Positions 13,097 to 30,093 of a stretch of 64,000 bases of DNA are shown here, one piece after another; positions within the stretch are counted from its first letter, which is position 1, and every line of letters begins with the position of its first letter. The translations under genes were made by a program, and so were the position numbers. The stretch spans positions 58,222 to 122,221 of the forward strand of contig JAJCZA010000022.1 of the NCBI GenBank assembly GCA_029262635.1, written 5' to 3'. The notes under the pieces were generated by a model. That model ran no database searches. It saw nothing but the letters and a program-made list of their open reading frames with translations, and was not told the origin of the DNA. This stretch comes from Vampirovibrionales bacterium (lineage in GTDB: Bacteria; Cyanobacteriota; Vampirovibrionia; Vampirovibrionales; Vampirovibrionaceae).

Positions 13097-13111
13097 GAAT
13101 CCGAATCCTTT

Positions 13112-13672: not shown

Positions 13673-13682
13673 TACCTATTTT

Positions 13683-14120
13683 TTATCCTTTAGATGCCGC
13701 CGGAACCTTGCCGGCTACTTTCTGAACAATTAAACGAGCTAACTCGCTTCGGTCTTCGGCTAATTTCTGGTAGGCGTTCTCTTGCCACGATGACAACTCA
13801 GTCATTTGAGCTTCCAGCTCTTTCGCTGCTTGTTGGCGGGCAGCGGTTAACGTCTCAAACGCCGATTCTTTGGCTTTTTGCCGAATTTCCTGAAGCACGA
13901 GGTGGGAACGCTTGCGTGCATCTTTTAGCCCTTGCTCATATTCAGCTTTCATCTTTTCCAAGTCAGCCAAATGTGTTTCGGTACTTTTTCGATCTTCTTC
14001 TTTTTTCCGCTCCCGTTCGGCTTTAATTTGACGAATGGGCTCAAAATAAACAGAACGCATTAACAGCATAAAGACAAAAAAGCTGATTATGACGACAATA
14101 AGTGTTCCATCAATTTCCAT
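13683..14120 (-). CDS. atpF2: F0 ATP synthase subunit b-prime (second b-type stator subunit)
   Basis: Same N-terminal TM plus coiled-coil architecture, 145 aa, directly downstream of atpE. The b/b-prime pair is as in cyanobacteria and chloroplasts. Confidence 0.7.
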   Translation of the reverse strand: MEIDGTLIVVIISFFVFMLLMRSVYFEPIRQIKAERERKKEEDRKSTETHLADLEKMKAEYEQGLKDARKRSHLVLQEIRQKAKESAFETLTAARQQAAKELEAQMTELSSWQENAYQKLAEDRSELARLIVQKVAGKVPAASKG

Positions 14121-14225
14121 GGGCTAGGAAAATCCTTTTGTATAACGCTTGCGAACAAACGTACTGCTGAAACTAAAAAATGAAGACCTTACCCTTGTAA
14201 CAAAAACAAGGGTAAAATCCAATGT

Positions 14226-14525
14226 TTAGTGCTGAGCGGTAGCTTCAATCGCTTGGTTAGCCGCATCAGCAACCGCTTCAGCGCTACCAAAGTCAACGAT
14301 ACCAAAGGCAATCAGAGCAAAGCTGACAAATCCAAAAAGACCCAAAAGCTCAACAACACCGAGAGTAATAAAGTATTGCGGGGTAATGTTGCCCTGAATC
14401 TCCGGCTGACGAGCGATACTATCGAAATAATGACCGGTCATTAAACCAATACCAATACCGGGTCCAATCCCTGCAAAAGCGACAGCGAGGGCTGTTCCTA
14501 AAAATGCGGCTGTTTGTGCATCCAT
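14226..14525 (-). CDS. atpE: F0 ATP synthase subunit c, with a roughly 20-aa hydrophilic C-terminal extension
   Basis: GIGPGIGIG glycine zipper in TM1, ARQPE loop, conserved Glu in TM2 (VVELLGL). 99 aa versus the usual 70-85. Confidence 0.9.
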   Translation of the reverse strand: MDAQTAAFLGTALAVAFAGIGPGIGIGLMTGHYFDSIARQPEIQGNITPQYFITLGVVELLGLFGFVSFALIAFGIVDFGSAEAVADAANQAIEATAQH

Positions 14526-14582
14526 TGTTCTGTTCTCTCCTTTGATGAATCTCTTAATAATTGATAACGTAAAAACAAAAAA

Positions 14583-15275
14583 TTAGTGTGCGTCGTGCTC
14601 TTCCACCATCAGTGCAATGTAAACCGCACTCAGGATAGAAAAAATATACGCTTGAACGACAGCAACGAAAAGTTCAAGGCCGATCACTAAAATCGGTGCC
14701 ACCAATGGCATAATTTTTAGTGCAAGTGTGGATAGAATCTCACCAACAAAAATATTGAAATAAAGACGAATAAGTAGCGACCCGGGCCGGGTAATGTGCT
14801 CGATCAGATTAAGCGGCGCAAAAGCCCAGTGAGGGTGAAAGTGATGATTAATAAACCCGCCAATACCGGTTCGTTTAATGGCCATCGCCATATACATAAA
14901 AACAGAAATAAGCGCCAGAGCGGTGGTCGTATTGATATCCGCAGTGGCGGCCATGAAACTGCCCTCTGGAATCAAACCATCAAATAAACGAAGTGGGAGT
15001 TGACCCATCAGGTTAGCAGTCAAAATAAACAGAAACATAGAACCAATAAAGAATAGATATCCATCACCTTTAGGGCCTGCAGTCGCCATGGTCATACTTC
15101 TGCATAGGTCATAAAAACTTTCGCCCACCGTCTGAAGCTTGGATGGGACTACCTGTAACTGCCGAGTAGTCATAAACGCGAAGGCCAAAAGAAACAACAT
15201 GCTCAACCAAGCGGTGATCAGAATGTTCATATGAACATCAAGCCCCAAAAGTGTAGTATGCCAGAAGTGGCCCAT
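14583..15275 (-). CDS. atpB: F0 ATP synthase subunit a
   Basis: 230 aa polytopic protein with the conserved Arg in the penultimate helix region (LIRLYFNIFVGE). Confidence 0.9.
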   Translation of the reverse strand: MGHFWHTTLLGLDVHMNILITAWLSMLFLLAFAFMTTRQLQVVPSKLQTVGESFYDLCRSMTMATAGPKGDGYLFFIGSMFLFILTANLMGQLPLRLFDGLIPEGSFMAATADINTTTALALISVFMYMAMAIKRTGIGGFINHHFHPHWAFAPLNLIEHITRPGSLLIRLYFNIFVGEILSTLALKIMPLVAPILVIGLELFVAVVQAYIFSILSAVYIALMVEEHDAH

Positions 15276-15299
15276 CGATTGTTTTCTCTCCTGTTGCTA

Positions 15300-15740
15300 T
15301 TAGTTCGCTTCCGCGGACGCTTTATATGGCGTGCTCTTAAATGCTTGTTTAACGTATTCGATTACCAAGCCTACTTTGTAGCTCAAAAACCCGCAAATGA
15401 CAATCCCTGTTTCTTGCAGTCGAAAATCACCAAGCATAACGATAATGTATGCCAAAAGAACCATTCTTGTAAGAGAAAACACAACTTGCTCTCGACCTTT
15501 TGGGTGTTCTGCACTAAACATAAGGCTTCCCATAAAGAATATACCAACACAAATACCGGCTAAGGCATATTTTAAAAAATGGGGTTCATAAATTGTAATA
15601 CTGATCAAAAACAAACTGGAAACCACCGCCATCCGAATCCAAAGGGTGCGTTTTAATTGTTTAAAGTCCATCGGCGGAGCGAGAAGGCATTTAAACGATT
15701 TTTGAATCGGGCTTTTAGGATTGTTTGGGTTGGCTGTCAT
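15300..15740 (-). CDS. atpI: ATP synthase protein I-like small membrane protein
   Basis: 146 aa with 3-4 TM helices, immediately upstream of atpB. Confidence 0.5.
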   Translation of the reverse strand: MTANPNNPKSPIQKSFKCLLAPPMDFKQLKRTLWIRMAVVSSLFLISITIYEPHFLKYALAGICVGIFFMGSLMFSAEHPKGREQVVFSLTRMVLLAYIIVMLGDFRLQETGIVICGFLSYKVGLVIEYVKQAFKSTPYKASAEAN

Positions 15741-18250: not shown

Positions 18251-18562
18251 TCATACGGGGCGGGAGACGCATTTTGTTCATTATCTCATTAATAACAAAG
18301 CAGAACAAAATAAAAGGGCAAGGATTAAAAGAGATTTAAAACAACCTCTCCTCTATTGATAGGAGAGAATAGGGTAAGAGAATGCATTTTGTCCGTTAGG
18401 CAATGGAACTTTGAAAGAGAGAGGGGGTTATTGTTAAATTTTATGAACCTGTCGCCGAAGCCATTGGTAAATCAGGAAAAAATCCACACACTCTTAAAAA
18501 GTAGTTCGGTTGGAAGCAAGCCTCTAAAACGGCTGAGTGATTTGAAAGAAGGATAGAGCCCC

Positions 18563-19267
18563 ATGATATTTAAAGGACGCGTAAGTAACGACGGCGATGG
18601 CATGATGATTGCCACCCGAGGCATGCTGGCGACGGTAAAACAAATAGAAACCCACACCACCAACATCGCTCACTTTGGCTTACCAGGGTACCAACGTAAA
18701 GAGGCGGTGGTCACATCGTTTGTTGAACACCTGGGCGCCAATGCCGTAGACGAAGTGGTCAGTACCGAGATTGGCCGTATCCGTAAAAGTAACAACCCAC
18801 TAGACTTTGCCTTACGGCACCCAGGCTACTTTCAGCATATGAACACTTCCGGCTCGATCGAGCTAACACGAGACGGCCGAATGAAGCTGGACAAAGACGG
18901 CAATCTGCTCTCGTTAGCAGGCCATAAAATTTTATCCGACGGTGGCTCGCCTATACAATTTACGTTTATCCCGAAAAATCCAGACCGGGATATTACCGTA
19001 TCCGCTGACGGCGAGATTAAAGTATTTCACGTAAAAACCCAGCAAATGGTGAACATGGGACGCATTGGCGTGGTCAGCCAAACCGGCACCATTGCCGACA
19101 AGGTAGATATTCGCCAAGGGCACGTCGAAGATTCCAACGTGTATCTGCAACAGGAATTTACCCGAGTGGTTCCCTTGCGACGCCAGTTTGAAGCCAACCG
19201 GCAAATTTTTATCACCCAAAGCGACGTCCTCTCCCGAACCATTCAGGAACTGGGACGACCTCAGTAA
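18563..19267 (+). CDS. flgF: flagellar basal-body rod protein FlgF-like
   Basis: N-terminal rod motif (TNIAHFGLPGYQRKE) and the C-terminal rod-family helix (SNVYLQQEFTRVVPLRRQFEANRQIFITQSDVLSRTI). Confidence 0.75.
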   Translation: MIFKGRVSNDGDGMMIATRGMLATVKQIETHTTNIAHFGLPGYQRKEAVVTSFVEHLGANAVDEVVSTEIGRIRKSNNPLDFALRHPGYFQHMNTSGSIELTRDGRMKLDKDGNLLSLAGHKILSDGGSPIQFTFIPKNPDRDITVSADGEIKVFHVKTQQMVNMGRIGVVSQTGTIADKVDIRQGHVEDSNVYLQQEFTRVVPLRRQFEANRQIFITQSDVLSRTIQELGRPQ

Positions 19268-19308
19268 CCTATTTAGCGTTTTAAATCTTCTGTAAGGAGA
19301 ACCCCGTT

Positions 19309-20019
19309 ATGCTACACCACATTATGAAATTTTCCGCCGACGCGGCCAATATGCAGTTTGATGTTCTGGATCGGGTCACACAAAACGTCGCGAATTTGAA
19401 CACCAATGGCTACAAAATCAAGCGATTTGATCAATACATGCGAAGCGATGGTGTGGTTAGCGGGGTTGAGCGGTTTGATTATACCCAGGGTTCCATTATG
19501 GTTACTCGCCGTCAGTTGGATGTGGCCTTAAAAGGTGAGGGGTTTATTCCCGTCACCCAACCCGACGGGCAAATTGCCTTTACCCGAGACGGTAGTTTTA
19601 CTCGAAACAGTGATGGGCTGATTATTACCAATCACGGCGATATTGTCGGCGATGGCATTCAACTGCCCGTAAACTACAAAAAAATCATCATTACAGAAAA
19701 CGGTGAAGTGAAAGTCCAACTTGATAACAAACTGGAACCGGAACAACTCGGTCAAATTAAACTGGTCAATTTTGCAAACCCGGAAGGACTGGAGTCCATT
19801 GGCCAAAATAAGCTGGTTGCCACGGAAAAATCGGGTGAAGCCGTGCCCATGACCGACGAGATGACCCAATTCAAACAAGGAGCACTGGAACGATCTAACG
19901 TCAACGTGTTTGCCCAGATTGATCAGGTCTTACGCCTAAATGCGGGACTGCTCTCTAATATGAAAATCGTGAAGTTCACAGATGACGTGTACCGACAGGC
20001 CACTAACCTGAAACAGTAA
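19309..20019 (+). CDS. flgG: flagellar distal rod protein FlgG
   Basis: NVANLNTNGYK N-terminal motif and SNVNVFAQIDQVLRLNAGLLSNMKIVKFTDDVYRQATNL C-terminal motif. Confidence 0.8.
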   Translation: MLHHIMKFSADAANMQFDVLDRVTQNVANLNTNGYKIKRFDQYMRSDGVVSGVERFDYTQGSIMVTRRQLDVALKGEGFIPVTQPDGQIAFTRDGSFTRNSDGLIITNHGDIVGDGIQLPVNYKKIIITENGEVKVQLDNKLEPEQLGQIKLVNFANPEGLESIGQNKLVATEKSGEAVPMTDEMTQFKQGALERSNVNVFAQIDQVLRLNAGLLSNMKIVKFTDDVYRQATNLKQ

Positions 20020-20051
20020 CTTGAACCCCCTATAAAAAAGAGGATAACAAC

Positions 20052-20402
20052 ATGGATCCTTTCGGAAAATTTAACCCCATCAGCAATGTACTTAATGCCA
20101 TTTCCAGTAATCAGAAACTGGTTTCTGGCAATGTTGCCAATGCCCATACACCCGGCTACACAGCTAAATCAACCACGTTTTCTCAATTGCTTTATAACCA
20201 ACACAGCCCGTTTGAAACAACGATGTCCAAGAAAATGGGTTCATCACTTCAGCCGCTGGGCACCATGGAAACCGGTGAAACGGTCAACATGAAACACGAG
20301 ATGATTACAATGCAGAAAAATATGTTGTTCTATAGCATGACCACCCGACGGGCGGCCTCAATTTTTAATATGCTCAGAACATCCAGCCAAATCGGGAGGT
20401 AA
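20052..20402 (+). CDS. flgB: flagellar proximal rod protein FlgB
   Basis: SGNVANAHTPGYTAK motif. 116 aa. Confidence 0.8.
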   Translation: MDPFGKFNPISNVLNAISSNQKLVSGNVANAHTPGYTAKSTTFSQLLYNQHSPFETTMSKKMGSSLQPLGTMETGETVNMKHEMITMQKNMLFYSMTTRRAASIFNMLRTSSQIGR

Positions 20403-20409
20403 TGGATAG

Positions 20410-20856
20410 ATGACACTTCAAAGCTCACTGGGCATAGCCGCACAAGGGCTCGACGCCGCTGGCGAACGGATGACTATCCATGCCAACAATATCGCCAACC
20501 TAACGACACCCAACTATCAACGAAAAATTCCTGTTCTCATGGAGAACAACGAAATGTCGTTTGAGAACATCATGGCACAAATGCGCAATGGCGTGATTCA
20601 AACCGGCATTAGTACGTCTCCCGGCGGGGTTCATATGGCAGGCTCCATTGCCGATAGCACGCCGGGGAAGCGAGTTTACAACCCAGGACACCCGGAAGCG
20701 GACAAAGACGGATTCGTTCAAGCCTCTAATGTCAATGTGTTAGCCGATATGTCAGATTCACTCTCCACTCAACGGGTCTACGAAGCGAATCTAGCGGTTA
20801 TTAGCATGGTAAAAGCCATGGCCAACCGGGCACTTGAAATCGGTCGAGGCCAATAA
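20410..20856 (+). CDS. flgC: flagellar proximal rod protein FlgC
   Basis: ANNIANLTTPNYQRK motif and C-terminal RVYEANLAVISMVKAMANRALEIGR. 148 aa. Confidence 0.85.
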   Translation: MTLQSSLGIAAQGLDAAGERMTIHANNIANLTTPNYQRKIPVLMENNEMSFENIMAQMRNGVIQTGISTSPGGVHMAGSIADSTPGKRVYNPGHPEADKDGFVQASNVNVLADMSDSLSTQRVYEANLAVISMVKAMANRALEIGRGQ

Positions 20857-20909
20857 GAGAGCCACTCATTTACTAACTAAAATAAAATACAAAGGAATTC
20901 CCCATCCCC

Positions 20910-21593
20910 ATGATGATTCAAGGCCCATCGCTATCTACCAGTTTTGCTCAATTAAAGGCCGGCGGCGGTATTAACGCGGTTGAAGGCCGGATGCAACAAC
21001 TGGAAATGATGATTAAAGCGGTAGAAGGGAATCGACAACAAACACCGATTTCCTTCAAGGCACAGCTTAATCAAGCTGCCCATCAACCGACTTTTACCTC
21101 AACCCTTCATGGCGTCGTTACGGATCAGATTCCCGGTGGCGCTCCAGTGCCTCCCCGATTCCCTGTCTCGTCGACTGCAACCATGTCTAAAAGCATGCGC
21201 GAGCGGATGGCTGTGTTACAGCCCCATATTACTGAATACAGTCAAAAATATGGGGTGGATAGTGCGCTGGTTAATGCGGTAATTCGACAGGAATCTGGGT
21301 TTAATCCGAATGCGGTTTCTAAAGCCGGTGCGCAAGGCCTAATGCAGTTAATGCCCGCCACAGCCAAAGGGTTGGGTGTAACGAATTCTCTGGATCCGAT
21401 CCAGAATCTGGACGGCGGTATTCGCTATCTAAAAAGCAAGCTTGATATGTACAACGGTAATGTTCCCCTGGCGCTAGCTTCCTACAACGCAGGTTCCGGT
21501 GCTGTTAAAAAATACAACGGGATTCCGCCGTATAAGGAAACTCAAAATTACGTAAAGTCAATTCTAACAGCTTACTTAAAAGAAAAAGCCTAA
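20910..21593 (+). CDS. flagellum-associated soluble lytic transglycosylase (SLT domain, SltF-like) with a roughly 110-aa N-terminal domain of unknown function
   Basis: SLT catalytic region ...IRQESGFNPNAVSKAGAQGLMQLMPATA...SYNAGSGAV (catalytic Glu in the ES motif). Sits between flgC and fliE. Confidence 0.75.
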   Translation: MMIQGPSLSTSFAQLKAGGGINAVEGRMQQLEMMIKAVEGNRQQTPISFKAQLNQAAHQPTFTSTLHGVVTDQIPGGAPVPPRFPVSSTATMSKSMRERMAVLQPHITEYSQKYGVDSALVNAVIRQESGFNPNAVSKAGAQGLMQLMPATAKGLGVTNSLDPIQNLDGGIRYLKSKLDMYNGNVPLALASYNAGSGAVKKYNGIPPYKETQNYVKSILTAYLKEKA

Positions 21594-21628
21594 AACAAGT
21601 TTAACCTCTGTAAAAAAGGACAAACATC

Positions 21629-21964
21629 ATGAATAATGGCTATATCCCCAAATTATCTCTCCCCACCCGAAACCCGGTTTCCATAAGCAATCCCATGTTT
21701 AACCCCGGAACACAGGGTGCCAATCCATTTGGCTCAGTGAATAAAACGTCGTTTAAAGATGTTATGCTCGACACGGTGGGCAAGGTTAATGATACCCTGG
21801 CAAAACCGGATACCATGATGATGGAAACCATTACCAATGGTACTCACGATGTTCACGATGTCATGTTGGCAGGAGCCAAAGCAGAGTTAACCATCACCAT
21901 TGCGGCTCAGTTAACCACTAAAGTAGTTCAGGCTTATGATCGAATTTTACAAATTCAGGTGTAG
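21629..21964 (+). CDS. fliE: flagellar hook-basal body complex protein FliE
   Basis: 111 aa. FliE-like helical sequence SFKDVMLDTVGKVNDTLAKPDTMMMETITNGTHDVHDVMLAGAKAELTITIAAQLTTKVVQAYDRILQIQV. Confidence 0.7.
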   Translation: MNNGYIPKLSLPTRNPVSISNPMFNPGTQGANPFGSVNKTSFKDVMLDTVGKVNDTLAKPDTMMMETITNGTHDVHDVMLAGAKAELTITIAAQLTTKVVQAYDRILQIQV

Positions 21965-22174
21965 CATTCAGGATTGGTTTACTCCCCCGTTCAGTGGGGT
22001 TCCTAAAGATAAGATCCTCTATGGAACCGATACGAAACCCGCTGTCCTTTAATATTATAGGAATAGGTCTAATTAATATTGCCGTAAAGCTGATTATCCG
22101 GAAAAATCAGCGTTTATGGGTACAATAAAAATAGAGAATCAAAATCAAGGGAATTAACTCAAGGAAGACCATTC

Positions 22175-23887
22175 GTGGCAAACCCCGTTCAAACTATTGT
22201 GGGACAGATCCAACAAAACCGTATGTTGGCTATTGGCTTGGCTGTAGCCGTAGTTTTGATTCTGGCGATTGGTGGTTTTATGCTCTTTTCTGGTGGTGGA
22301 AAAAGTAACGAAACCGGCGGAAAAAGCTGCAACAGACCACTGGATAAAGACCAGAAAAAGTTTGCCATGAAAGTCTCGCCTATTGGTAAAGCGGTGGAAA
22401 TACAAGCGCTTTTAGCCTCGGCCGGGATTACTCTGAATCGGGTGGACGACGATACAGGGAAAAAAGCAGATTTGAGCTTTGCGGATGGAACGACCCTTTG
22501 CCAAAGGGATACAGCCTTGATTTCTGTAGCCCAGTCGGGACTGCTTGATAAAAATATTGGACTGGAAATTTTTGAAAAAGGCGATCTAACGGCATCTCGC
22601 GAAGAAAAGCGAATTAAGCTAGTTCGGGCGCAACAGGGCGAGTTGGCCCGGCTCATTCGAAAACTAGATACCATTTCTGATGCGACGGTCAGTTTTTCCA
22701 TTCCAGAACACTCCATTTTTACCAAACAACAAAAAGCCATGTCCGTTACGGTTCAGGTCCGCACAAAAAACGGGGAACGTTTGACTCGGGATAAAGTGCG
22801 CACAGTTATTAATCTGGTAGTAGGAAGTGTTCAACAGGTAGACGCGCAACATGTGGCCTTATCCGACACCAACGGAAACACGTACAACAGTGTACTGGAC
22901 GCCTCCAGCGAATTTGGCCATAAAATGGAAGAGCGAGATCTCTACATGCGGGATAAAGTGGCCCGCCAGCTCAACCGATTAAGCGGCGTAGGCAATTACG
23001 TCGTTACCGTCAGCACCCAGCTTCGGGAAGAGGCGCAGGAAGTGATGACTCAAAGCTTTGATCCTAACGAGTCAGTGGTTTCTACACGACAGCGGTTTTC
23101 AGAAAATTTAAACGCCCGCTCCGGTAATGCTGGTTTATCCGGTGGTCCGGCGAGTGGCTTTGTACCCAACGAGCTAAAAACATCCACTTCGGGTCAAAGT
23201 TCATCGAACCGGGGCTATCGCCGGGAAGGTGAGGAAATCAGCTATGCCAACACCAAAACCCAGAAAATGGAAACCCGTATGCCAGGGATGATTGAGGATA
23301 TCTCCATTGCCGTAACTCTGGATGAAGATCATTTTCCTAAAGTGGTATTGGATACAGGCGAAAAAGTGGACATGGACACACGGGAACTCCAACGGCTAAT
23401 TGCCCGTTCGGCTAGCCCACGAGTAAACCCGAGCAACGTCAGCATTGCCCGAATCAGTTTTGGCAAAAGTTCGGCCACTCCCATTCAAAAGACTTCGGAA
23501 AACGTAGCCACCAAAGAACCTGTCGATTATATGCCTTATGCTGTCGGTGCGGTTTTGGTCATGCTGGCTTTTCTCCTATTCATGTTTCGGGGGACGTCAA
23601 AAGATCCCAAGGCAGAGCTCAATGAACAGGAGATTCAACGACTTCAAGAAGTCGCCAACCAACAGCAACAACAACTTCAGGCAACACAACAACAAACTCA
23701 ACTGCTTATGGAGGCACAACAGCAACAGTTATCCGATCCCACGACAGACAATGCAGGCAGTTTAGCTGGAGGTACTGAAGTTGGCTTACAGCAAACGCTA
23801 GGCGAAATTAAAGAGGTTATTGAGGAAGAGGAACTGGATGATGAAGAAATTGATTCGCAAATCCGAAGCTGGATTGAGTCTTCTTAA
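22175..23887 (+). CDS. fliF: flagellar MS-ring protein FliF
   Basis: 570 aa with GTG start. N-terminal TM, RBM/YscJ-like periplasmic region, second TM near the C-terminus, then an acidic C-terminal FliG-binding tail (EEEELDDEEIDSQIRSWIESS). A Gln-rich low-complexity stretch precedes the tail. Confidence 0.9.
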   Translation: MANPVQTIVGQIQQNRMLAIGLAVAVVLILAIGGFMLFSGGGKSNETGGKSCNRPLDKDQKKFAMKVSPIGKAVEIQALLASAGITLNRVDDDTGKKADLSFADGTTLCQRDTALISVAQSGLLDKNIGLEIFEKGDLTASREEKRIKLVRAQQGELARLIRKLDTISDATVSFSIPEHSIFTKQQKAMSVTVQVRTKNGERLTRDKVRTVINLVVGSVQQVDAQHVALSDTNGNTYNSVLDASSEFGHKMEERDLYMRDKVARQLNRLSGVGNYVVTVSTQLREEAQEVMTQSFDPNESVVSTRQRFSENLNARSGNAGLSGGPASGFVPNELKTSTSGQSSSNRGYRREGEEISYANTKTQKMETRMPGMIEDISIAVTLDEDHFPKVVLDTGEKVDMDTRELQRLIARSASPRVNPSNVSIARISFGKSSATPIQKTSENVATKEPVDYMPYAVGAVLVMLAFLLFMFRGTSKDPKAELNEQEIQRLQEVANQQQQQLQATQQQTQLLMEAQQQQLSDPTTDNAGSLAGGTEVGLQQTLGEIKEVIEEEELDDEEIDSQIRSWIESS

Positions 23888-24052
23888 GAGAAATAACGTA
23901 TTGGCTTCTCTAATTTTTTTATTAAAAAACAGGCCAAAAGGATGAACAGGCAAAGAATATAGGCTAATATAATAAAAAGAGCAATTCCGTTTTTAAGGGC
24001 GGTTTTTCCAATTTAAAAGAACGTTTTAAAGGTAAAAAGAGAGAAAGAGCAA

Positions 24053-24682
24053 ATGACCATTCACGAACTTCAGGGCGAACAACTGGCAGAAACTTGGCGT
24101 GACCGGGTTGTAAAACGAATGGAAGCAAAAGACGCTTCATCAGAAGAGATTGAAGAATCGGCGTTTATTATTTATAACCTATCCAAAGCGGTGGTTGAGT
24201 CACTTAAAAGTGAGCCCACAATCCAGTTACCAGGCCGTGCTGAAACGTTAATCCTGGATAGAGAGGAAGGGGAATTTATTCTGGAGTTGTTTGTGCGAAG
24301 TATTCTAAATATGACCAACCAACTACGGGAAGTTCAAGCCACTGTAGAAATGGACTGGGATAGCCGAAAAAATGTGCTGGAACAGGCCGCCTGGGAAGTC
24401 TTAATTCTTTCCAAGATCGTATTCGCCAGTTCTAAATTACCAGGAAAAGCTCAGATACTTTTGAAAAGCGAAGAAGACATGTTTCTGATCATGCGAAAAA
24501 GCACGGACGAAATTCTAAAACGTCATTTACCGAAAGGAGCCAGCTTAAGAAAAAAAGCAGAAATGACGCTAGCAGGCGGCACCAGTTTAACGAAATTTGA
24601 GATGGCCTCTAGAACCGCAGTCGCTTTGTACAAATCCTTTCAGGACCAATTAGGTTTATCGTCTGATGGAGGGAAAAAGTAA
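24053..24682 (+). CDS. hypothetical soluble protein in the fliF-fliH interval
   Basis: 209 aa, helical, no motif I can assign. Sits where fliG is normally found. Confidence 0.5.
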   Translation: MTIHELQGEQLAETWRDRVVKRMEAKDASSEEIEESAFIIYNLSKAVVESLKSEPTIQLPGRAETLILDREEGEFILELFVRSILNMTNQLREVQATVEMDWDSRKNVLEQAAWEVLILSKIVFASSKLPGKAQILLKSEEDMFLIMRKSTDEILKRHLPKGASLRKKAEMTLAGGTSLTKFEMASRTAVALYKSFQDQLGLSSDGGKK

Positions 24683-24685
24683 TTT

Positions 24686-25219
24686 ATGGCCGAAACGGGT
24701 CACATTGAAGGATTTTCACCAGAAAGCGTGATCTCAAAGTTGATTCAACGCTATACGGAGCGCTTGAAAAAATCGCCTCTCTCGCCTGAAGATCAAGCTG
24801 GTATTGTTGACTTAATGTCTCAATTTACCGAAATTGCGTCACAACTCATTGCCCAACAACAGGAAGATATTTTGGTTCAGGGCGAAGCCCCGCCGAAAGA
24901 AAGAAAACCTTTACCCTTTGATGGACCACGAGCCCGGCAAGCCATGTTTTTATTTTCCGATGCGGTGTATTACACGTTAATCAAATGTCATAAAATGAAA
25001 ATCCCAAAGGAACTACATATCCAGTTTTCTCAACAAGTGGCACAACAAGTCTTCGAGGAAGCTAAACGACTGATTTTAACAGTGCACTATGAACAATCGG
25101 ATATGTCGAAAAAAGATCAAATTCAATTTATGAATCAGACCGCCCTCAAGTCACTGCGTTATTTTGTGGGTGAGTATAAAAAACAGGCCGAAACGGAAAG
25201 CGGAGGTAATGTTTCATGA
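24686..25219 (+). CDS. hypothetical protein, novel domain (paralogous to the N-terminal half of the next gene)
   Basis: 177 aa. Shares collinear motifs with 25216-26364: SPEDQA...QF..IA.Q, MFLF...VYY..LK, QVF...K.L.L., QI.[FY][MV]NQTA...L.Y[FY]V.EY.K. Confidence 0.5.
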   Translation: MAETGHIEGFSPESVISKLIQRYTERLKKSPLSPEDQAGIVDLMSQFTEIASQLIAQQQEDILVQGEAPPKERKPLPFDGPRARQAMFLFSDAVYYTLIKCHKMKIPKELHIQFSQQVAQQVFEEAKRLILTVHYEQSDMSKKDQIQFMNQTALKSLRYFVGEYKKQAETESGGNVS

Positions 25220-26364
25220 CCGACGCTCCCCAGATACCACCTGTTTCTTTACAACCTATTGACGGATTTAACCCGGAACAGGTGATCCTCGAATTAGGCC
25301 AACGCTTTGAAGTCAAACTGAAAAAAGAATCTCTTTCTCCTGAGGATCAAGCTTATTTACTTGGATTCATTAACCAATTTGCCCAGATTGCTGCTCAGCA
25401 AATTCTGGAACAACGAATGATTGAAGTACCCCCCGAGGCCTCACGTGAAGGGTTCTCGTCCCTTCCTTATACCGGCGTAAGCGCAGGGCAGACCATGTTC
25501 CTTTTTTGCGAAGGGGTTTACTACGCCGTACTCAAAGGCTGGAAAATGGGTTTGCCTCAAGATTTCCATACCCAGCTAGCTGGCAGCGTTGCCCAACATG
25601 TGTTTGATACAACGAAACAACTGGTTTTGTCGACCCAGGGACAGGAACTGACGCCAGAATATCAGATTACTGAAGAACAGCAGATTGCCTATGTAAACCA
25701 AACGGCCGAAAGTGCCTTGCTTTACTATGTTAATGAGTATGAAAAGACCAATGGGCCATTTAACCCAGAGGAACGAGTCGTTGAAGAGGAGCTAGAGGCT
25801 CCTGAAATAGTAACCGATGAACCAAGGGTTGAAGCCAAGCCATTACCACCACAGCCCGTCCAATCAAACGTTCCGGCAGGAAGCCGGGAGCAACATACAA
25901 AATATGCGGCGTTGGCTTTGCTCTTAACCACATTGAAACCTAGTCAACAACAGAAAATTTTTCAGCAATTTACACCCGAAGAGCAGCAGGTTATGAATTA
26001 TTACGCCTTACCGCAAAATGTAGAGCGGGTGCTGGACATTCATCAGGTAACCGAACATCTGATGAAGCTAAAGAAGCAAATTAAAGCCGATCATACCTCC
26101 ATAGCATCCCGCTCAATGGCTAATCGAGCGATTGAGGAAATGACTCAGGTTTATCCAAAGGAAAACCTAATCGCCTATGTGAACCATGAACGGCCCAAAA
26201 TAAAAAAATATCTTGAATCATCTTTTGCAACAACGGATAAGATGGACCCCATGTCACTTTTTACTGCGACAGACGAAACTCAAAACGAAGCAAAAGACGA
26301 CCAGAGTTTGTCATCAAAAGTTGAGTCGGTTCTTCATCGCTTTCTGTCACAACAGGTGAGTTAA
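25216..26364 (+). CDS. two-domain hypothetical protein: N-terminal copy of the novel domain plus a C-terminal region resembling the FliG N-terminal / MgtE-N helical domain
   Basis: The N-terminal 190 aa parallel the previous ORF. The C-terminal segment AALALLLTTLKPSQQQKIFQQFTPEEQQVMNYYAL resembles the FliG-N start (AAILL.SLGPE.AA.V.K.L..EE...L). No FliG middle or C-terminal torque motifs are present. Confidence 0.5.
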   Translation: MTDAPQIPPVSLQPIDGFNPEQVILELGQRFEVKLKKESLSPEDQAYLLGFINQFAQIAAQQILEQRMIEVPPEASREGFSSLPYTGVSAGQTMFLFCEGVYYAVLKGWKMGLPQDFHTQLAGSVAQHVFDTTKQLVLSTQGQELTPEYQITEEQQIAYVNQTAESALLYYVNEYEKTNGPFNPEERVVEEELEAPEIVTDEPRVEAKPLPPQPVQSNVPAGSREQHTKYAALALLLTTLKPSQQQKIFQQFTPEEQQVMNYYALPQNVERVLDIHQVTEHLMKLKKQIKADHTSIASRSMANRAIEEMTQVYPKENLIAYVNHERPKIKKYLESSFATTDKMDPMSLFTATDETQNEAKDDQSLSSKVESVLHRFLSQQVS

Positions 26365-26389
26365 TGCCCCAAAAGGGAATCATTAGAAA

Positions 26390-27094
26390 ATGATCATTAA
26401 ACGAAACAAAGCCAATCAAACCCAGTCCTCTAACCTCTCTAGCGACGGGAAAAATGCCAGTGAAACGGACCAGAGCCAGTCTCTTAACTGGACTCAGGAT
26501 AATCTGGAAAAAGGATTGGTTCAGGAGCGTCGCATGGGGCCCCGTGAAAATCGCCGAGACGGGTTTCGACGATTGGAAGATAAGAACTTAATCAGCCGGG
26601 CTCACGAAGAGGCCAACGCCATTCGGGAAAACGCTAAACGGGAAGGCTTTGAAGAAGGGTTAGACGAAGCACAGGAAGAAATTCAGCACTTAAAAAAGGT
26701 TTTGGAAGAACTCATGATTTCCCGTGAAACCGTGCTGGAGTCAGTGGTCGATGATATTGCCCCCATTGCGGTCGAAATTGCCGAACGAATTATCAAGACC
26801 GAAGTGGCGTGCGACGATGAGTTGATTATGGGCATTGTCAACGACACCCTGCAAAAAGTTAGCCGAAAAACAAAAAGTATTTTGATTAAGATTCATCCAG
26901 AAGATGTATCTCTGGTCAAAGAAAATTTAAAAGCCAATCCAATCCCTAATATGGATGCTGAAATTATGGTCATGGATGATCCGGTCGTGGATCGAGGAAG
27001 CTGCATTGTAGAGACCAACAGCGGCCTCATTGACGCGTCGTTTTCAACCCGAATAGAAATTTTGAAGAAACTGTTTGGCACGAACTCACCCTGA
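26390..27094 (+). CDS. fliH: flagellar export ATPase regulator FliH-like (FliH/SctL family)
   Basis: Central charged coiled coil (ISRAHEEANAIRENAKREGFEEGLDEAQEEIQHLKK) followed by a FliH C-terminal-like domain. Located immediately before flhA. Confidence 0.6.
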   Translation: MIIKRNKANQTQSSNLSSDGKNASETDQSQSLNWTQDNLEKGLVQERRMGPRENRRDGFRRLEDKNLISRAHEEANAIRENAKREGFEEGLDEAQEEIQHLKKVLEELMISRETVLESVVDDIAPIAVEIAERIIKTEVACDDELIMGIVNDTLQKVSRKTKSILIKIHPEDVSLVKENLKANPIPNMDAEIMVMDDPVVDRGSCIVETNSGLIDASFSTRIEILKKLFGTNSP

Positions 27095-27256
27095 AAAAAT
27101 AAAATTAAGAAAAGCAACCCTGAATTGAGACTCAATTCAAATACTATTTAAAGCAGATGTTTTTTTAAAAGAAGTAAGACAAAATAAAACGTAAGAGAAC
27201 GTGATTGGGTTTAACGGGTTTTAAAAAACCCAGAGAAAGAAACAAAAGGAGAGTCG

Positions 27257-29383
27257 GTGGCACACCCTCAGGCACCACAACAGCAACAAGGCGGCGGACA
27301 AGCCTTTTCCATGCCGCCTCTAACAGAAGTCCTTCTGGCGTTTCTGGTTCTTGGACTTGTCCTGATTATTATTATGCCGCTTCCGGCCTGGATGATTGAC
27401 GGCATTATCTCCATGAACGTGTCTCTTGGCATCATCCTCCTAATGATGTCCCTCTACGTCGAGAAAGCACTGGATATGGCAGCATTTCCCTCGATTATTG
27501 TTGTCGGCACCATGATGCGGCTAGCCTTAGGGATTGCCACCACCCGATCCATTTTAGCCAACGGCATGGCTGGGGACATGGTCGAGGCCTTCGGGAACTT
27601 CGTAACCGGAGGAAACCTGATTGTCGGGGCGGTGGTCTTTATCATCATTACCATTGTTCAGTTTATGGTAATTACCAAGGGTTCCGAGCGTATCGCAGAA
27701 GTTGGCGCCCGATTTGCCCTGGACGCTATGCCGGGAAAGCAAATGACTATTGATGCGGATTTTAACTCTGGGCTGATTTCTCCAGAAGAAGCCATTAAAC
27801 GACGAGAAGACCTCCAACGAGAATCCGCTCTCTACGGCTCCATGGATGGTGCCATGAAATTCGTCAAAGGAGATTCCATTGCCGGTATTATCATTACCAT
27901 CATCAACATTATTGGTGGGTTAAGCATCGGAATGGGCATGAAAGAACTAGCCTTTGACGAGGCCATTAGCAAATATACACTATTAACCATCGGAGATGGT
28001 TTGGCCGCCCAGATTCCCGCTCTGCTGATGGCCATTGCGTCCGGTTTGATGATGACCCGTTCTACGGCATCTGGCACCAGTTTGGGTAAAGACCTTTTTG
28101 AACAGGTTCAAAGCAAGCCTTATGGTTTGATTTTCTCCGCGATTTTTCTCGCCGTCATTGTCGCAACAGCAAGCTATACTGGTTTAGCCTGGTGGGCGTT
28201 TTTAATTGTTGTTTTCATTCTTGTCGGGATTGCTTTTAGTGTGTTTCTCGCCACAGACGTTCAGCAACAATTGGGCCAATTAGAACAAACCAAACAGAAC
28301 ATGTCGGAACTGATTAACCCGAACCGAATGTATGAAAAGCTAGGCGTCGACGTCTTAAGTCTTCAGGTCGGTAATGATCTGCTGAGAATCGCTGACCCTG
28401 AGCAAGAGGGCCAACTACTGGGTAAAATTGCCGGATTACGCTCTCGCCTAACCGACGAGCTTGGTTTTATTCTCCCCAACGTCCGAATTATGGACAGCTT
28501 GAGTTTGGGCCCTCAAGAGTACTTAATTTCCATCCGGAATAACCCGGTAGCCACAGGAAACGTCTATCCTGATCGGTATATGATTACCAGCGCTCTATTT
28601 GAGTCGGTTGGCCTCCAGCCCCCAGAGGGTGCGATGCGAGATAAAGACCCGACTTATGGCACTGACGCTTACTGGTTACTGCCCGATGAAATTCCGACCG
28701 AACTCCAGGATAGAGCGATTGAAGCGACAGATGCCATTATCGCCCACCTGGCCGAAGTGGTTATTAAGTATGTGGATGATGTGATGACAAAAATGGACGT
28801 ACTGAAGCTAATGGAGCTGGTACGTCAGCAGGATCAGTCTCTGGTTCAGGAATTGGTTCCCTCCATTGTAACGCCCAACGACTTGCGTAAGATTTTCGTT
28901 AACCTGATTCAGGAAAAAGTCTCTATTAAAGATATTATGTTTGTTTTTGAACGCTTGAGCGACTATGCCCGCTTTAGCAAAGAGCCTGATGTCCTTTCTG
29001 AACGGCTCCGGGCGGCATTAGGCCGACAAATCTGCTTGAACAATTCAGAAAATAAAACCATGTACGCCGTCACCCTATCCAATGACTGGGAAAAAATGCT
29101 CGATGACAGTTGTCAGCGAACCGAGCTAGGCACCATGTTCCTGCTAAATCCACTTCAGGTTCAGGAACTGATTGAAACGACCGCAGAAACACTGCGTTCC
29201 GTTCAGGACTCTTATAACCGGATGCCCGTCGTCCTTTGCTCGCCCCGAATCCGATTGCCATTATATCAATTACTGGATCGTCATATTCCCATGGTGGTCG
29301 TCATGTCTTATAGCGAACTAATTCCAGAAATTCAAGTGCAAGCCGTTGGAGCCATTGGCGGCGGTGGCATGGATGACCTATAA
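27257..29383 (+). CDS. flhA: flagellar export gate protein FlhA (FlhA/SctV family)
   Basis: 708 aa. Conserved FHIPEP region (ITKGSERIAEVGARFALDAMPGKQMTIDAD, FVKGDSIAGIIITIINIIGG) and a cytoplasmic C-terminal domain. Confidence 0.95.
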   Translation: MAHPQAPQQQQGGGQAFSMPPLTEVLLAFLVLGLVLIIIMPLPAWMIDGIISMNVSLGIILLMMSLYVEKALDMAAFPSIIVVGTMMRLALGIATTRSILANGMAGDMVEAFGNFVTGGNLIVGAVVFIIITIVQFMVITKGSERIAEVGARFALDAMPGKQMTIDADFNSGLISPEEAIKRREDLQRESALYGSMDGAMKFVKGDSIAGIIITIINIIGGLSIGMGMKELAFDEAISKYTLLTIGDGLAAQIPALLMAIASGLMMTRSTASGTSLGKDLFEQVQSKPYGLIFSAIFLAVIVATASYTGLAWWAFLIVVFILVGIAFSVFLATDVQQQLGQLEQTKQNMSELINPNRMYEKLGVDVLSLQVGNDLLRIADPEQEGQLLGKIAGLRSRLTDELGFILPNVRIMDSLSLGPQEYLISIRNNPVATGNVYPDRYMITSALFESVGLQPPEGAMRDKDPTYGTDAYWLLPDEIPTELQDRAIEATDAIIAHLAEVVIKYVDDVMTKMDVLKLMELVRQQDQSLVQELVPSIVTPNDLRKIFVNLIQEKVSIKDIMFVFERLSDYARFSKEPDVLSERLRAALGRQICLNNSENKTMYAVTLSNDWEKMLDDSCQRTELGTMFLLNPLQVQELIETTAETLRSVQDSYNRMPVVLCSPRIRLPLYQLLDRHIPMVVVMSYSELIPEIQVQAVGAIGGGGMDDL

Positions 29384-29418: not shown

Positions 29419-30093
29419 ATGCTTCACTATACAGCTTGTCTGGCTAGTTCCTTTGATGGAAAAATTGCGCCAGCTCATACGCATCAATATGTCCGGATTG
29501 GTTCGGACAGGGATATTTCCCATTTAATCCGGTTACGAGGGGAGTTTGACGCCCTTCTTATGGGTGGTTCTACGTTTCGAGCCTATCCCAAGCGGCATAA
29601 AAGCGAAGAAGGTTCTCATCGGCCGATTCATGCGATTCTAACCCGAGGGGGCGACAATATATTAGCGGCTCTACCCCCAGAATCCCCGCTTTTTAAAGAA
29701 CAATCATCTGATCAAGCTGTCCCCATAGTCGTGTTTGCCCAGCGATGCCCCTCCATCGACCAACAGGCCAAATATCCCGATTCAATCCAGTGGGTTGAGA
29801 CTGGTGAAACGGCCCTCCAGCAATTGAACATTATTGATCAAACCTTGCACGAGATGGGGTGTTCTAATGGATTAGTCGAAGGCGGCGGACAAATAATGGC
29901 ACTGTTTTTAGAAGCAAAGGCATTGAGAGAGATGTACTTAACCCTGTGCCCTTTATTTCTGGGTGGACAAGATGCCCCTAATCTACTTTCCGGTACCGAA
30001 TTTCAATTAAAAGACGCCCCTCGCATGGAGCTTATGGAAGTGAGCCAACAGGGCCACGAATTGTTTTTACGGGTAACGTTTCAGTACACCTGA
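29419..30093 (+). CDS. RibD C-terminal domain / dihydrofolate-reductase-like reductase family protein
   Basis: LMGGSTF and LVEGGGQIMALFLE are Rossmann-like motifs typical of the RibD_C/DHFR-like family. Confidence 0.65.
   Translation: MLHYTACLASSFDGKIAPAHTHQYVRIGSDRDISHLIRLRGEFDALLMGGSTFRAYPKRHKSEEGSHRPIHAILTRGGDNILAALPPESPLFKEQSSDQAVPIVVFAQRCPSIDQQAKYPDSIQWVETGETALQQLNIIDQTLHEMGCSNGLVEGGGQIMALFLEAKALREMYLTLCPLFLGGQDAPNLLSGTEFQLKDAPRMELMEVSQQGHELFLRVTFQYT

What the first reader, a model, noticed from the sequence alone, without database searches (positions are those of the whole stretch)
18563..29383. Compact flagellar core cluster with unusual gene complement: rod + SLT + fliE + fliF ... 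fliH directly followed by flhA, with no fliI/fliJ
Gene order is flgF-flgG-flgB-flgC-SLT-fliE-fliF-(3 unknowns)-fliH-flhA, all co-directional with short gaps. The usual fliH-fliI-fliJ arrangement is absent: fliH abuts flhA, and a RibD_C-like reductase follows. No fliG, fliM, fliN, fliP/Q/R, flhB, hook or filament genes are in the window.

The rod PG-hydrolase is an SLT-type enzyme with its own N-terminal domain rather than a FlgJ glucosaminidase. Together these suggest a non-enterobacterial flagellar system with scattered loci, possibly from a poorly studied phylum.
Basis: partly seen in the sequence, partly recalled or inferred. Interest (0 to 1): 0.5.

Follow-up and report, generated by a model that had tools for sequence, protein, structure and literature searches.

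The report
Divergent flagellar core operon of Melainabacteria
This is a real, strongly conserved operon of non-photosynthetic cyanobacteria (Vampirovibrionia) that encodes the membrane ring, rod and export gate of a flagellum-like machine, has a lineage-specific protein in place of the rotor protein FliG, and may not serve swimming.

Summary
Window 18563-29383 encodes flgF-flgG-flgB-flgC-SLT-fliE-fliF-(3 ORFs)-fliH-flhA, followed by a RibD_C gene, and the window holds no other flagellar gene.

The organism is a Vampirovibrionales (Melainabacteria) MAG. The same cluster is syntenic in five other Vampirovibrionales loci and twelve Gastranaerophilales loci. In some Gastranaerophilales fliI directly follows flhA, so fliH-flhA adjacency is ancestral and the missing fliI is a local relocation.

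The three "unknowns" are one family. The 382-aa protein sits in the fliG slot and combines a novel N-terminal helical domain with a C-terminal FliG_N-like fold. The 209-aa and 177-aa ORFs are free-standing paralogs of that N-domain. No FliG middle or torque-generating C domain is detectable.

This FlhA clade lacks the near-universal Tyr of the GYXLI switch motif (0/134, against 61/67 canonical FlhAs).

Published tables show that V. chlorellavorus carries a complete canonical flagellar gene set alongside this one. Most Gastranaerophilales keep such a subset without filament genes.

My best reading is a second, probably non-rotary, flagellum-derived type III apparatus. I rate it a new variant of a known kind, interest 0.6.

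The parts
18435..18462 (+). Candidate sigma-28 (FliA/SigD)-type promoter, TAAA-N15-GCCGAAGC, about 100 nt upstream of flgF
   Evidence: This is the only TAAA-N15-GCCGA match in the 64-kb window (0.67 expected by chance in the whole window). The block TTGTTAAATTTTATGAACCTnTCGCCGAA is conserved upstream of flgF in L002 and L085, and partly in L001 and L086. No comparable site lies in the other intergenic gaps. It is a consensus match plus a phylogenetic footprint. Function was not shown.
18563..19267 (+). FlgF/FlgG-like distal rod protein, 234 aa
   Evidence: Pfam LlgE_F_G_D1 (E = 5e-9) and Flg_bbr_C (E = 3.5e-6). It is 49-54% identical to orthologs in L001 and L002.
19309..20019 (+). FlgG-like distal rod protein, 236 aa
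   Evidence: Pfam LlgE_F_G_D1, E = 1e-18. It is 52-58% identical to orthologs.
20052..20402 (+). FlgB-like proximal rod protein, 116 aa
   Evidence: Pfam Flg_bb_rod, weak, E = 1.3e-3. Position is conserved and orthologs are 51-55% identical.
20410..20856 (+). FlgC proximal rod protein, 148 aa
   Evidence: Pfam Flg_bbr_C (E = 1e-9) and Flg_bb_rod. Orthologs are 64-66% identical.
20910..21593 (+). Rod-associated lytic transglycosylase: SLT domain at residues 107-214, preceded by a signal-less N-terminal region of about 100 aa
   Evidence: Pfam SLT, E = 1e-33. The translation shows no hydrophobic N-terminal signal. The gene is syntenic in Vampirovibrionales and Gastranaerophilales. Export through the T3SS, as for FlgJ, is inferred.
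21629..21964 (+). FliE, the adaptor between MS ring and rod, 111 aa
   Evidence: Pfam FliE, E = 1e-15.
22175..23887 (+). FliF MS-ring protein, 570 aa, ending in ...IDSQIRSWIESS
   Evidence: Pfam YscJ_FliF plus YscJ_FliF_C. The C-terminal motif [IL][KR][SN]WIE is conserved in all 14 cluster FliFs (the window's and 13 from related loci) and resembles the [ILMV]R.W[ILM] end of five canonical FliFs.
24053..24682 (+). Free-standing paralog 1 of the N-terminal domain of protein X, 209 aa
   Evidence: No Pfam family. Orthologs are present in L001, L085 and L086 (alignment A4) and absent in L002. hhalign of A4 against the X family gives probability 99.4%, E = 1.5e-21, over X residues 13-173.
24686..25219 (+). 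Free-standing paralog 2 of the X N-terminal domain, 177 aa. This is a recent duplication seen only in this lineage.
   Evidence: BLASTP against X residues 15-177 gives 42% identity, E = 7e-39. Its stop overlaps the X start codon by 4 nt.
25216..26364 (+). Protein X, 382 aa, in the fliG position. It has a novel helical N-domain (about residues 20-180), a Pro-rich disordered linker, a FliG_N-like C-domain (about 224-340) and a terminal helix.
   Evidence: - No FliG Pfam hit.
- The family has 168 representatives at 50% clustering.
- It is homologous over its full length to the 307-347-aa proteins in the same slot of Gastranaerophilales (hhalign 99.6%).
- Members hit FliG-clan families: MgtE_N 21, FliG_M 17, FliG_N 11 of 86.
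- The best PDB profile hit is A. aeolicus FliG, E = 0.011.
- The N-domain has no significant structural match.
26390..27094 (+). FliH, the tether and regulator of the T3SS ATPase, 234 aa
   Evidence: Pfam FliH, E = 2e-24.
27257..29383 (+). FlhA export-gate protein, 708 aa, with GNDLL in place of the GYXLI motif and Ala in place of Thr490
   Evidence: Pfam FHIPEP, E = 3e-205. The PDB search shows it closer to FlhA than to SctV, most clearly in the cytoplasmic domain: 181 bits to B. subtilis FlhA_C against 93 bits or less to SctV_C. The motif positions were set by alignment to Salmonella FlhA and counted.
29419..30093 (+). RibD_C-like reductase, a conserved downstream neighbour whose membership in the system is uncertain
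   Evidence: Pfam RibD_C, E = 3.5e-15. It follows flhA in all five other Vampirovibrionales loci but not in Gastranaerophilales, where fliI or other genes follow.

Best explanation
The region is the conserved core operon of a divergent flagellar-type type III secretion and basal-body apparatus, characteristic of class Vampirovibrionia (Melainabacteria).

Shown directly:
- It encodes an MS ring (FliF), an adaptor and rod (FliE, FlgB, FlgC and two FlgF/G-like proteins), a signal-less SLT peptidoglycan lytic enzyme, FliH and the export-gate protein FlhA.
- In the fliG slot lies a lineage-specific protein, X, made of a novel N-terminal helical domain and a C-terminal FliG_N-like domain.
- Two free-standing copies of the X N-domain are encoded just upstream.

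Inferred:
- The FliG_N-like domain of X docks on the conserved C-terminal ...[IL][KR][SN]WIE helix of FliF.
- The novel X domain and its paralogs build the cytoplasmic platform that FliG_M/C and FliM provide in true flagella, and FliH-FliI docks there.
- X has no recognisable FliG middle or torque-generating C domain, so the machine is probably not driven by stators.
- This FlhA clade has lost the Tyr of the GYXLI switch motif and, in Vampirovibrionales, Thr490 of the chaperone dimple. It therefore probably does not switch to chaperoned filament-type substrates and exports rod/hook-type or other cargo.

The remaining parts (FliI, FliJ, FlhB, FliOPQR, a FliN-like SpoA protein, a FlgE-like protein) are encoded elsewhere. 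In V. chlorellavorus this set coexists with a complete canonical flagellar set. In most Gastranaerophilales a partial flagellar gene subset of this kind persists without filament genes. The likeliest role is therefore a separate, non-motility structure for protein export or cell-envelope spanning.
For: Gene content and distribution:
- Gene identities come from the Pfam scans.
- Synteny holds in five Vampirovibrionales loci and twelve Gastranaerophilales loci.
- fliH-flhA-fliI is the order in L004 and L056.
- ACD20 gene numbering G0015-G0028 in Di Rienzi 2013 matches the cluster (PMC3787301).
- FlhA is 63-82% identical across the two orders, against 33-40% for nearly all the other FlhAs retrieved (46% for the orphan in L013), and the cluster's FlhAs form a tight clade on a long stem.

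Protein X:
- The X family has 168 representatives.
- The C-domain is FliG_N-like.
- The N-domain paralogy is well supported.
- The FliF C-terminal motif is conserved.

FlhA motifs:
- Tyr369 is present in 61/67 canonical FlhAs (plus 2 Phe) and in 0/134 of this clade.
- Thr490 is present in 67/67 canonical FlhAs and 1/122 Vampirovibrionales-type sequences.
- The role of GYXLI in rod/hook-to-filament switching and chaperone binding is taken from bioRxiv 10.1101/2023.11.25.568686.

Published gene inventories:
- V. chlorellavorus Table S3 lists duplicate fliE, fliF, fliH, flhA, flhB, fliPQR, flgB, flgC and flgE, but one fliG, fliM, flgH, flgI, flgK, flgL and fliD (PMC4451040).
- Partial sets are retained in genomes without complete flagella (PMC3787301; PMC4040986; bioRxiv 10.64898/2026.04.24.720558).
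Against: - I could not inventory the whole genome that contains the window, so a second canonical set in this organism is not shown.
- The two-set picture rests on one published annotation table and on statements about partial gene sets, not on my own phylogenies.
- Absence of a FliG_C-like domain is absence of detection only.
- Gastranaerophilales FlhA keeps Thr490.
- Six of 67 canonical FlhAs also lack Tyr369, and two of those six carry Phe.
- The sigma-28-like promoter would fit ordinary flagellar regulation.
- No cargo, outer-membrane component or phenotype is known.
Confidence: 0.6

Rival explanations
1. This is an ordinary flagellar locus. It would be one of several scattered loci that together build a single, normal, rotating flagellum, and X would be a very divergent but functional FliG.
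For: - The literature annotates these genes simply as flagellar genes.
- X sits exactly between fliF and fliH, has a FliG-fold domain, and FliF keeps its FliG-binding-like C-terminus.
- A sigma-28-like motif lies upstream.
- The window genome was not shown to have a second set.
Against: - V. chlorellavorus has a separate flgBC-fliEFGHI operon with a recognisable fliG, and its own flhA, fliPQR and flhB. This cluster is therefore redundant for that flagellum.
- The FliG-like domain of X is at the C-terminus and matches FliG_N best. No FliG_M or FliG_C was detected in X, and only 2 of 86 family members gave even a weak FliG_C hit.
- Partial flagellar gene subsets of this kind persist in genomes lacking filament, cap, junction and L/P-ring genes.
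- FlhA lacks the GYXLI Tyr in 134 of 134 sequences.
Confidence: 0.25
2. This is a decaying relic of a lost flagellum with no function of its own, analogous to gene remnants left by reductive evolution.
For: Soo 2014 and Di Rienzi 2013 interpret partial sets in gut Melainabacteria as flagellar loss or ongoing genome reduction.
Against: - All 13 ORFs are intact, with tight spacing.
- Gene order is conserved across two orders.
- FlhA is 63-82% identical across orders.
- X has 168 cluster representatives and nearly invariant residues.
- The upstream motif is conserved.

These features indicate purifying selection.
Confidence: 0.05
3. This is a non-flagellar (injectisome-type) T3SS locus mis-read as flagellar.
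For: - The full-length FlhA scores almost as well against one SctV (7alw, 362 bits) as against Vibrio FlhA (366-376 bits).
- From my own knowledge of injectisome loci, not checked here, SLT-type enzymes are typical of them.
- One X-N paralog ortholog has a weak CopN_3rd hit, E = 0.009.
Against: - Flagellum-specific rod proteins FlgB, FlgC, FlgF/G and FliE are present, and FliF carries the FliF_C domain.
- The FlhA cytoplasmic domain is much closer to FlhA_C (181 bits) than to SctV_C (93 bits or less).
- No secretin, SctD, needle or translocon genes are in the window.
Confidence: 0.03

Closest known systems
Canonical bacterial flagellum: the fliE-fliF-fliG-fliH-fliI-fliJ and flgB-flgC operons of Firmicutes and Spirochaetes type
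   Same: It has FliF, FliE, FlgB, FlgC, FlgF/G, FliH and FlhA homologs. Gene order around fliE-fliF-[slot]-fliH is the same. The FliF C-terminal motif is retained, and the slot protein carries a FliG_N-like fold.
   Different: - There is no recognisable FliG_M or FliG_C.
- The FliG-like domain is C-terminal and fused to a novel domain that also exists as free-standing paralogs.
- flhA is inserted between fliH and fliI.
- The FlhA GYXLI Tyr is lost, and Thr490 is lost in Vampirovibrionales.
- No L/P-ring, junction, cap or filament genes are linked.
- Partial flagellar gene subsets of this kind persist in genomes said to lack filament genes.
Secondary (dual) flagellar systems, such as the lateral flagella of Vibrio, Aeromonas and Bradyrhizobium
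   Same: A second paralogous set of flagellar core genes coexists with a primary flagellar set in one genome (V. chlorellavorus).
   Different: From my own knowledge, not checked in a paper here, described secondary systems are complete flagella with their own FliG, FliM, FliN, stators, hook-associated proteins and flagellin. In the published table for V. chlorellavorus those genes are single-copy, apart from a second motAB pair that is not assigned to either set.
Ancestral Myxococcales-type NF-T3SS intermediate (Abby & Rocha 2012, PMC3459982)
   Same: Both are flagellum-derived T3SS that lack elements essential for motility and lack a secretin. The Myxococcales form was proposed to act in protein translocation.
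   Different: That system already has NF-T3SS-specific features and no flagellar rod. This one keeps the full flagellar rod, FliE and FliF, and its FlhA is of FlhA type rather than SctV type. If it is an exaptation, it would be an independent one.
Buchnera aphidicola flagellar basal bodies without filament (PMC8109811)
   Same: Basal-body and export genes are retained and presumably expressed in the absence of a filament, and a transport role has been suggested.
   Different: As I understand it (not checked here), the Buchnera set is the reduced remnant of the organism's only canonical flagellum. Here the set is a distinct paralogous lineage with a re-built FliG-slot protein, and it can coexist with a full flagellum.

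Membership tests
Bacterial flagellum (motility organelle) | MS-ring protein FliF with YscJ_FliF and FliF_C domains | tested here: met
   Pfam E = 1e-28 and 3e-13.
Bacterial flagellum (motility organelle) | Axial rod proteins FliE, FlgB, FlgC, FlgF, FlgG | tested here: met
   Pfam hits for all five, with FlgB weak. Orthologs are conserved.
Bacterial flagellum (motility organelle) | FlhA-type export gate, as opposed to SctV type | tested here: met
   FHIPEP E = 3e-205. FlhA_C scores 181 bits against 93 bits or less for SctV_C.
Bacterial flagellum (motility organelle) | Rotor protein FliG with N, M and torque-generating C domains | tested here: not met
   No FliG Pfam hit for X. Only a single FliG_N-like domain is found, at the C-terminus. 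FliG_C hits occur in 2 of 86 members, at E >= 0.055.
Bacterial flagellum (motility organelle) | Conserved GYXLI motif and Thr490 dimple of FlhA_C, used for switching to filament-type substrates | tested here: not met
   The window has GNDLL and Ala. Tyr is present in 0/134 sequences of the clade against 61/67 canonical FlhAs. Thr490 is present in 1/122 Vampirovibrionales-type sequences against 67/67 canonical.
Bacterial flagellum (motility organelle) | FliM/FliN C ring, MotAB stators, hook, junction, cap and flagellin belonging to the same set | not testable with these tools
   None of these is in the window or within about 10 kb of it. Published tables suggest these genes are single-copy or absent for this set.
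Non-flagellar T3SS (injectisome) | Secretin SctC, SctD ring, needle SctF and SctV-type gate | tested here: not met
   No such genes are in the window. The gate is FlhA-like and flagellar rod genes are present.
Secondary or lateral flagellar system | A complete second set including its own FliG, FliM, stators and flagellin | tested here: inconclusive
   No FliG is in the cluster. V. chlorellavorus Table S3 lists only one fliG, fliM, fliD, flgK and flgL. I did not inventory genomes myself.
FliG family (for protein X) | FliG_N fold that binds the FliF C-terminus | tested here: met
FliG family (for protein X) | N-M-C domain order, with the EHPQR motif in the middle domain and the charged torque helix in the C domain | tested here: not met
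   The FliG-like domain is C-terminal. The N-terminal 180 aa is a different helical domain with no FliG match.

The most novel reading that the evidence does not exclude
Vampirovibrionia carry a lineage-wide, independently evolved derivative of the flagellum. It would be a non-rotating MS-ring, rod (and hook) and export apparatus. Its rotor protein has been reduced to a FliF-anchoring FliG_N module fused to a new platform domain. Its FlhA no longer switches to filament substrates. It works alongside, or in most gut lineages instead of, a true flagellum. That would make it a second natural experiment, besides the injectisome, in turning a flagellum into a different machine.
Probability: 0.4. 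Interest if true: 0.8.

Novelty: new variant of a known kind. Interest (0 to 1): 0.6.

Why it matters
How the flagellum was re-used to make other machines is known from essentially one lineage, the injectisome, whose intermediates are scarce. A widely conserved flagellum-type apparatus that keeps rod and MS ring but has lost the torque-generating part of FliG and the FlhA switch motif would be an independent case, and a testable one. It can be compared directly with the canonical flagellum in the same cell, because V. chlorellavorus is available in co-culture.

It would also re-interpret the "incomplete flagella" repeatedly reported in human-gut Gastranaerophilales as a functional system rather than decay. 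That bears on claims about their motility.

The X family gives a natural dissection of FliG: an anchoring module without the motor module.

Tried and rejected
- Single-sequence and 8-sequence profile searches of X against the PDB gave nothing useful.
- hhalign of X against six real FliGs taken from fetched loci was weak: probability 1-44%.
- A homolog search with the 209-aa ORF found only the ORF itself. Its relatives came from synteny instead.
- Sigma-70 promoter and terminator scans were at chance level. No convincing sigma-54 site was found.
- L013 encodes the next-closest FlhA, at 46% identity. It has no flagellar neighbours, and the 449-aa ORF after it is not an ATPase.
- The afdb50 fold library was unavailable.
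- I could not retrieve canonical Melainabacteria flagellar proteins with the capped searches. The duplication was therefore not tested by my own phylogeny.
- Literature searches found no paper that describes this cluster as a distinct second system.

Full report
**1. Observation.**
ORF listing and Pfam scans confirm the reported gene order at the reported coordinates. The order is FlgF-like (18563-19267), FlgG-like (19309-20019), FlgB (20052-20402), FlgC (20410-20856), an SLT lytic transglycosylase (20910-21593), FliE (21629-21964) and FliF (22175-23887). Three ORFs without Pfam families follow (24053-24682, 24686-25219, 25216-26364), then FliH (26390-27094), FlhA (27257-29383) and a RibD_C reductase (29419-30093). 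All are co-directional with short gaps.

Scans of every other sizeable ORF in the window show housekeeping genes only: NrdDG, SecA, F-type ATP synthase, purEK, CstA, the dcw cluster, an SNF2 helicase, AI-2E transporters, PilT and XerC-like proteins. About 10 kb beyond each window end holds no flagellar gene either.

**2. Provenance and conservation.**
FlhA has more than 120 database clusters at 68-82% identity. Those that carry names are labelled Vampirovibrio, Vampirovibrionales, Melainabacteria or Cyanobacteria. The window matches a Logan assembly of SRR15505515 and an NCBI MAG.

Five other Vampirovibrionales loci were fetched, including two V. chlorellavorus assemblies. All show flgF-flgG-flgB-(RDD in V. 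chlorellavorus)-flgC-SLT-fliE-fliF-[0-1 small ORF]-[361-390-aa ORF]-fliH-flhA-(small ORF)-RibD_C.

A scan of species-representative genomes found twelve Gastranaerophilales or Melainabacteria loci with FlhA at 63-66% identity and the same core, (flgC)-SLT-fliE-fliF-[307-347-aa ORF]-fliH-flhA. In L004 and L056 a T3SS ATPase gene (ATP-synt_ab plus T3SS_ATPase_C) directly follows flhA.

Di Rienzi et al. 2013 give gene numbers for ACD20: G0015 and G0016 flgG, G0018 flgC, G0021 fliF, G0023 fliH, G0024 flhA, G0025 fliI, G0028 flgE (PMC3787301). These fit the cluster gene for gene. The fliH-flhA junction is therefore an ancestral feature of this class, with flhA sitting between fliH and fliI. The absence of fliI and fliJ here reflects a break after flhA in Vampirovibrionales.

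**3. The three unknown ORFs are one family.**
- The 177-aa ORF is 42% identical to residues 15-177 of the 382-aa ORF, called X here (E = 7e-39).
- The 209-aa ORF and its orthologs in L001, L085 and L086 (alignment A4) match the N-terminal domain of the X family by profile-profile comparison (probability 99.4%, E = 1.5e-21).
- X from Vampirovibrionales and the protein in the same slot of Gastranaerophilales are homologous over their full length (hhalign 99.6%, E = 1.4e-23).
- An exhaustive HMM search of 1.84 billion representative proteins found 168 family members, all about 300-430 aa or fragments, and no canonical FliG.

**4. X carries a FliG_N-like domain but is not a FliG.**
The AF2 model of X (pLDDT 73) shows a confident N-terminal helical bundle at residues 20-180, a disordered Pro-rich linker, and a helical C-terminal domain at residues 224-340 followed by a final helix.

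Sequence evidence for a FliG link is weak but recurrent. It consists of the following results.
- Among 86 family members, 21 hit MgtE_N, 17 hit FliG_M, 11 hit FliG_N (best E = 3e-6) and 2 hit FliG_C. All four families belong to the FliG clan, and no other family recurs.
- The 86-sequence profile's best PDB hit is A. aeolicus FliG (E = 0.011).
- hhalign against six real FliGs gives 44% probability to the middle domain and 17% to the N domain.

- two FliG_M chains
- one FliG_C chain

The FliF proteins of this cluster end in a strictly conserved ...[IL][KR][SN]WIE motif. It resembles the C-terminal helix of five canonical FliFs in my loci, which in the published complexes is the FliG_N-binding element.

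I infer that X anchors to FliF through this domain. The rest of FliG, meaning the FliM-binding middle domain and the stator-facing C domain, is not detectable. A different domain sits at the N-terminus instead, and it is also encoded as one or two stand-alone proteins.

**5. FlhA is of flagellar type but has lost a switch motif.**
Against the PDB, the protein scores best with FlhAs. The cytoplasmic domain scores 181, 146 and 138 bits with B. subtilis, H. pylori and Salmonella FlhA_C, against 93 bits or less with SctV_C.

I aligned the window protein to Salmonella FlhA and to 200 further sequences: 121 Vampirovibrionales-type, 11 Gastranaerophilales, L013 and 67 from other phyla.
- Tyr369 of the GYXLI motif is Tyr in 61 of 67 canonical FlhAs, plus 2 Phe. 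It is never Tyr or Phe in the 134 sequences of this clade, where it is N, G, A, S, T or V. Position 372 is always Leu in the clade.
- Thr490 is invariant in the 67 canonical sequences. It is present in 1 of 122 Vampirovibrionales-type sequences and retained in the 11 Gastranaerophilales sequences.

[quoted passage not shown] That Thr490 forms part of the chaperone-binding dimple of FlhA_C is from my own knowledge of the Salmonella literature and was not checked in a paper here.

A rough NJ tree puts the clade as a tight group on a long stem, apart from all other FlhAs sampled, with the orphan L013 as sister. The tree has no support values and no SctV outgroup.

**6. This is a second set, not a piece of the one flagellum.**
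Table S3 of Soo et al. 2015 lists, for V. chlorellavorus, a canonical operon flgB-flgC-fliE-fliF-fliG-fliH-fliI. It also lists fliP-fliQ-fliR-flhB-flhA, flgL-K-N-J-I-H-A-G-G, fliN-M-L-motB-motA, fliD and fliS (PMC4451040).

In addition it lists the present cluster, flgF-flgG-flgB-flgC-fliE-fliF ... fliH-flhA, together with a second flhB, fliR-Q-P-O-spoA, a second fliJ and flgE, and (from Table S2) a second FliI/YscN. The authors treat all of these as one flagellum.

Three further papers describe partial sets.
- Di Rienzi et al. report 13 flagellar genes shared by all four genomes they analysed. These are mostly the present cluster plus fliPQR and flhB. One of the four genomes, MEL.A1, lacks filament, cap, junction and L/P-ring genes.
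- Soo et al. 2014 report that six of nine Gastranaerophilales genomes keep only a subset.
- A 2026 preprint says about 75% of Gastranaerophilales genomes keep only genes such as flhB, fliI and flgG, "postulated" to act in secretion.

I found no paper that recognises a distinct paralogous system, its FliG-slot family or the FlhA motif change.

**7. Regulation.**
The only TAAA-N15-GCCGA match in the window lies 100 nt upstream of flgF (18435-18458). The block is conserved in L002 and L085 and partly in V. chlorellavorus. V. chlorellavorus encodes a sigma-28 homolog. This is a candidate FliA/SigD promoter and no more than that.

Sigma-70-like promoter and terminator matches are at chance level.

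**8. Mechanism and confidence.**
Shown: the gene content, synteny, paralogy, fold resemblance and motif changes described above.

Inferred: FliF forms the MS ring. X docks on its C-terminus through the FliG_N-like domain. The X N-domain and its free paralogs form the cytoplasmic platform that recruits FliH-FliI. FlhA, with FlhB and FliPQR encoded elsewhere, exports FliE, FlgB, FlgC, FlgF and FlgG, and also the signal-less SLT enzyme in a FlgJ-like manner, to build a rod through the peptidoglycan. With no FliG_C and no functional GYXLI/Thr490 switch, the apparatus probably neither rotates nor proceeds to filament assembly.

I put 0.6 on this separate, non-motility reading and about 0.9 on the weaker statement that this is the conserved Melainabacteria flagellar-type core operon.

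Rival readings:
- An ordinary locus of a single flagellum with a very divergent FliG: 0.25.
- A decaying relic: 0.05.
- An injectisome: 0.03.

**9. Novelty and score.**
The genes are already annotated as flagellar in published genomes, so the cluster itself is not new. Four things appear to be undescribed:
- recognition of this cluster as a distinct, conserved second system;
- the X family, a FliG_N-only module fused to a novel domain that is duplicated up to three times;
- flhA inserted between fliH and fliI;
- the clade-wide loss of the FlhA GYXLI Tyr.

I rate it a new variant of a known kind, interest 0.6.

Noticed in passing
L002:12281-13117: Directly after flhA in GCA_019751815 lies a 278-aa ORF with a FHIPEP hit. 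It resembles FlhA residues 387-578 at 26% identity, so it looks like a free-standing FlhA_C-like paralog. L085 has a 180-aa ORF with no Pfam hit at the same place. Di Rienzi's list of 13 shared genes also contains a second 'flhA' in ACD20.
   Followed up: no
L013:9986-12091: A MAG labelled Gammaproteobacteria encodes an FlhA 46% identical to the window's. It shares the non-Tyr motif (GSNLL) and Ala at position 490. It has no flagellar neighbours: SecF and FtsZ lie upstream, and five large ORFs without Pfam hits lie downstream. It is the sister of the Melainabacteria clade in the NJ tree.
   Followed up: partly
window 29419-30093: A RibD_C-like reductase follows flhA after 35 nt. It is conserved in that position in all five other Vampirovibrionales loci but not in Gastranaerophilales. 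Whether it is co-transcribed or functionally linked is unknown.
   Followed up: partly
L001:3501-4010 and L086:3486-3995: In both V. chlorellavorus assemblies an RDD-domain membrane protein gene is inserted between flgB and flgC. It is absent from the window, L002 and L085.
   Followed up: no
window 23987-24009: A terminator-like hairpin with a T-run (CCGTTTTTAAGGGCGG TTTTTCC) lies in the 165-nt fliF to 209-aa-ORF gap. It may split the cluster into two transcription units. Terminator-like sites overall are at chance frequency.
   Followed up: no
window 38578-40757 and 61871-62980: Type IV pilus-related genes are present: a 219-aa ORF with weak PilO and T2SSM_b hits next to a 507-aa ORF without Pfam hits, and a PilT-like T2SSE ATPase (369 aa) followed by a XerC/D-type recombinase.
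   Followed up: no
window 9989-15740: An F-type ATP synthase operon (gamma, alpha, delta, b, b', a, plus a small ORF) lies on the minus strand just upstream of the flagellar cluster. The same neighbourhood (ATP synthase and YajQ) flanks the cluster in L002 and partly in L085, so the chromosomal context is conserved.
   Followed up: partly
window 42817-44947 and 48515-49519: Three sizeable ORFs (403, 311 and 334 aa) have no Pfam family at E <= 0.001. They flank a 1070-aa SNF2-family helicase (44944-48156).
   Followed up: no
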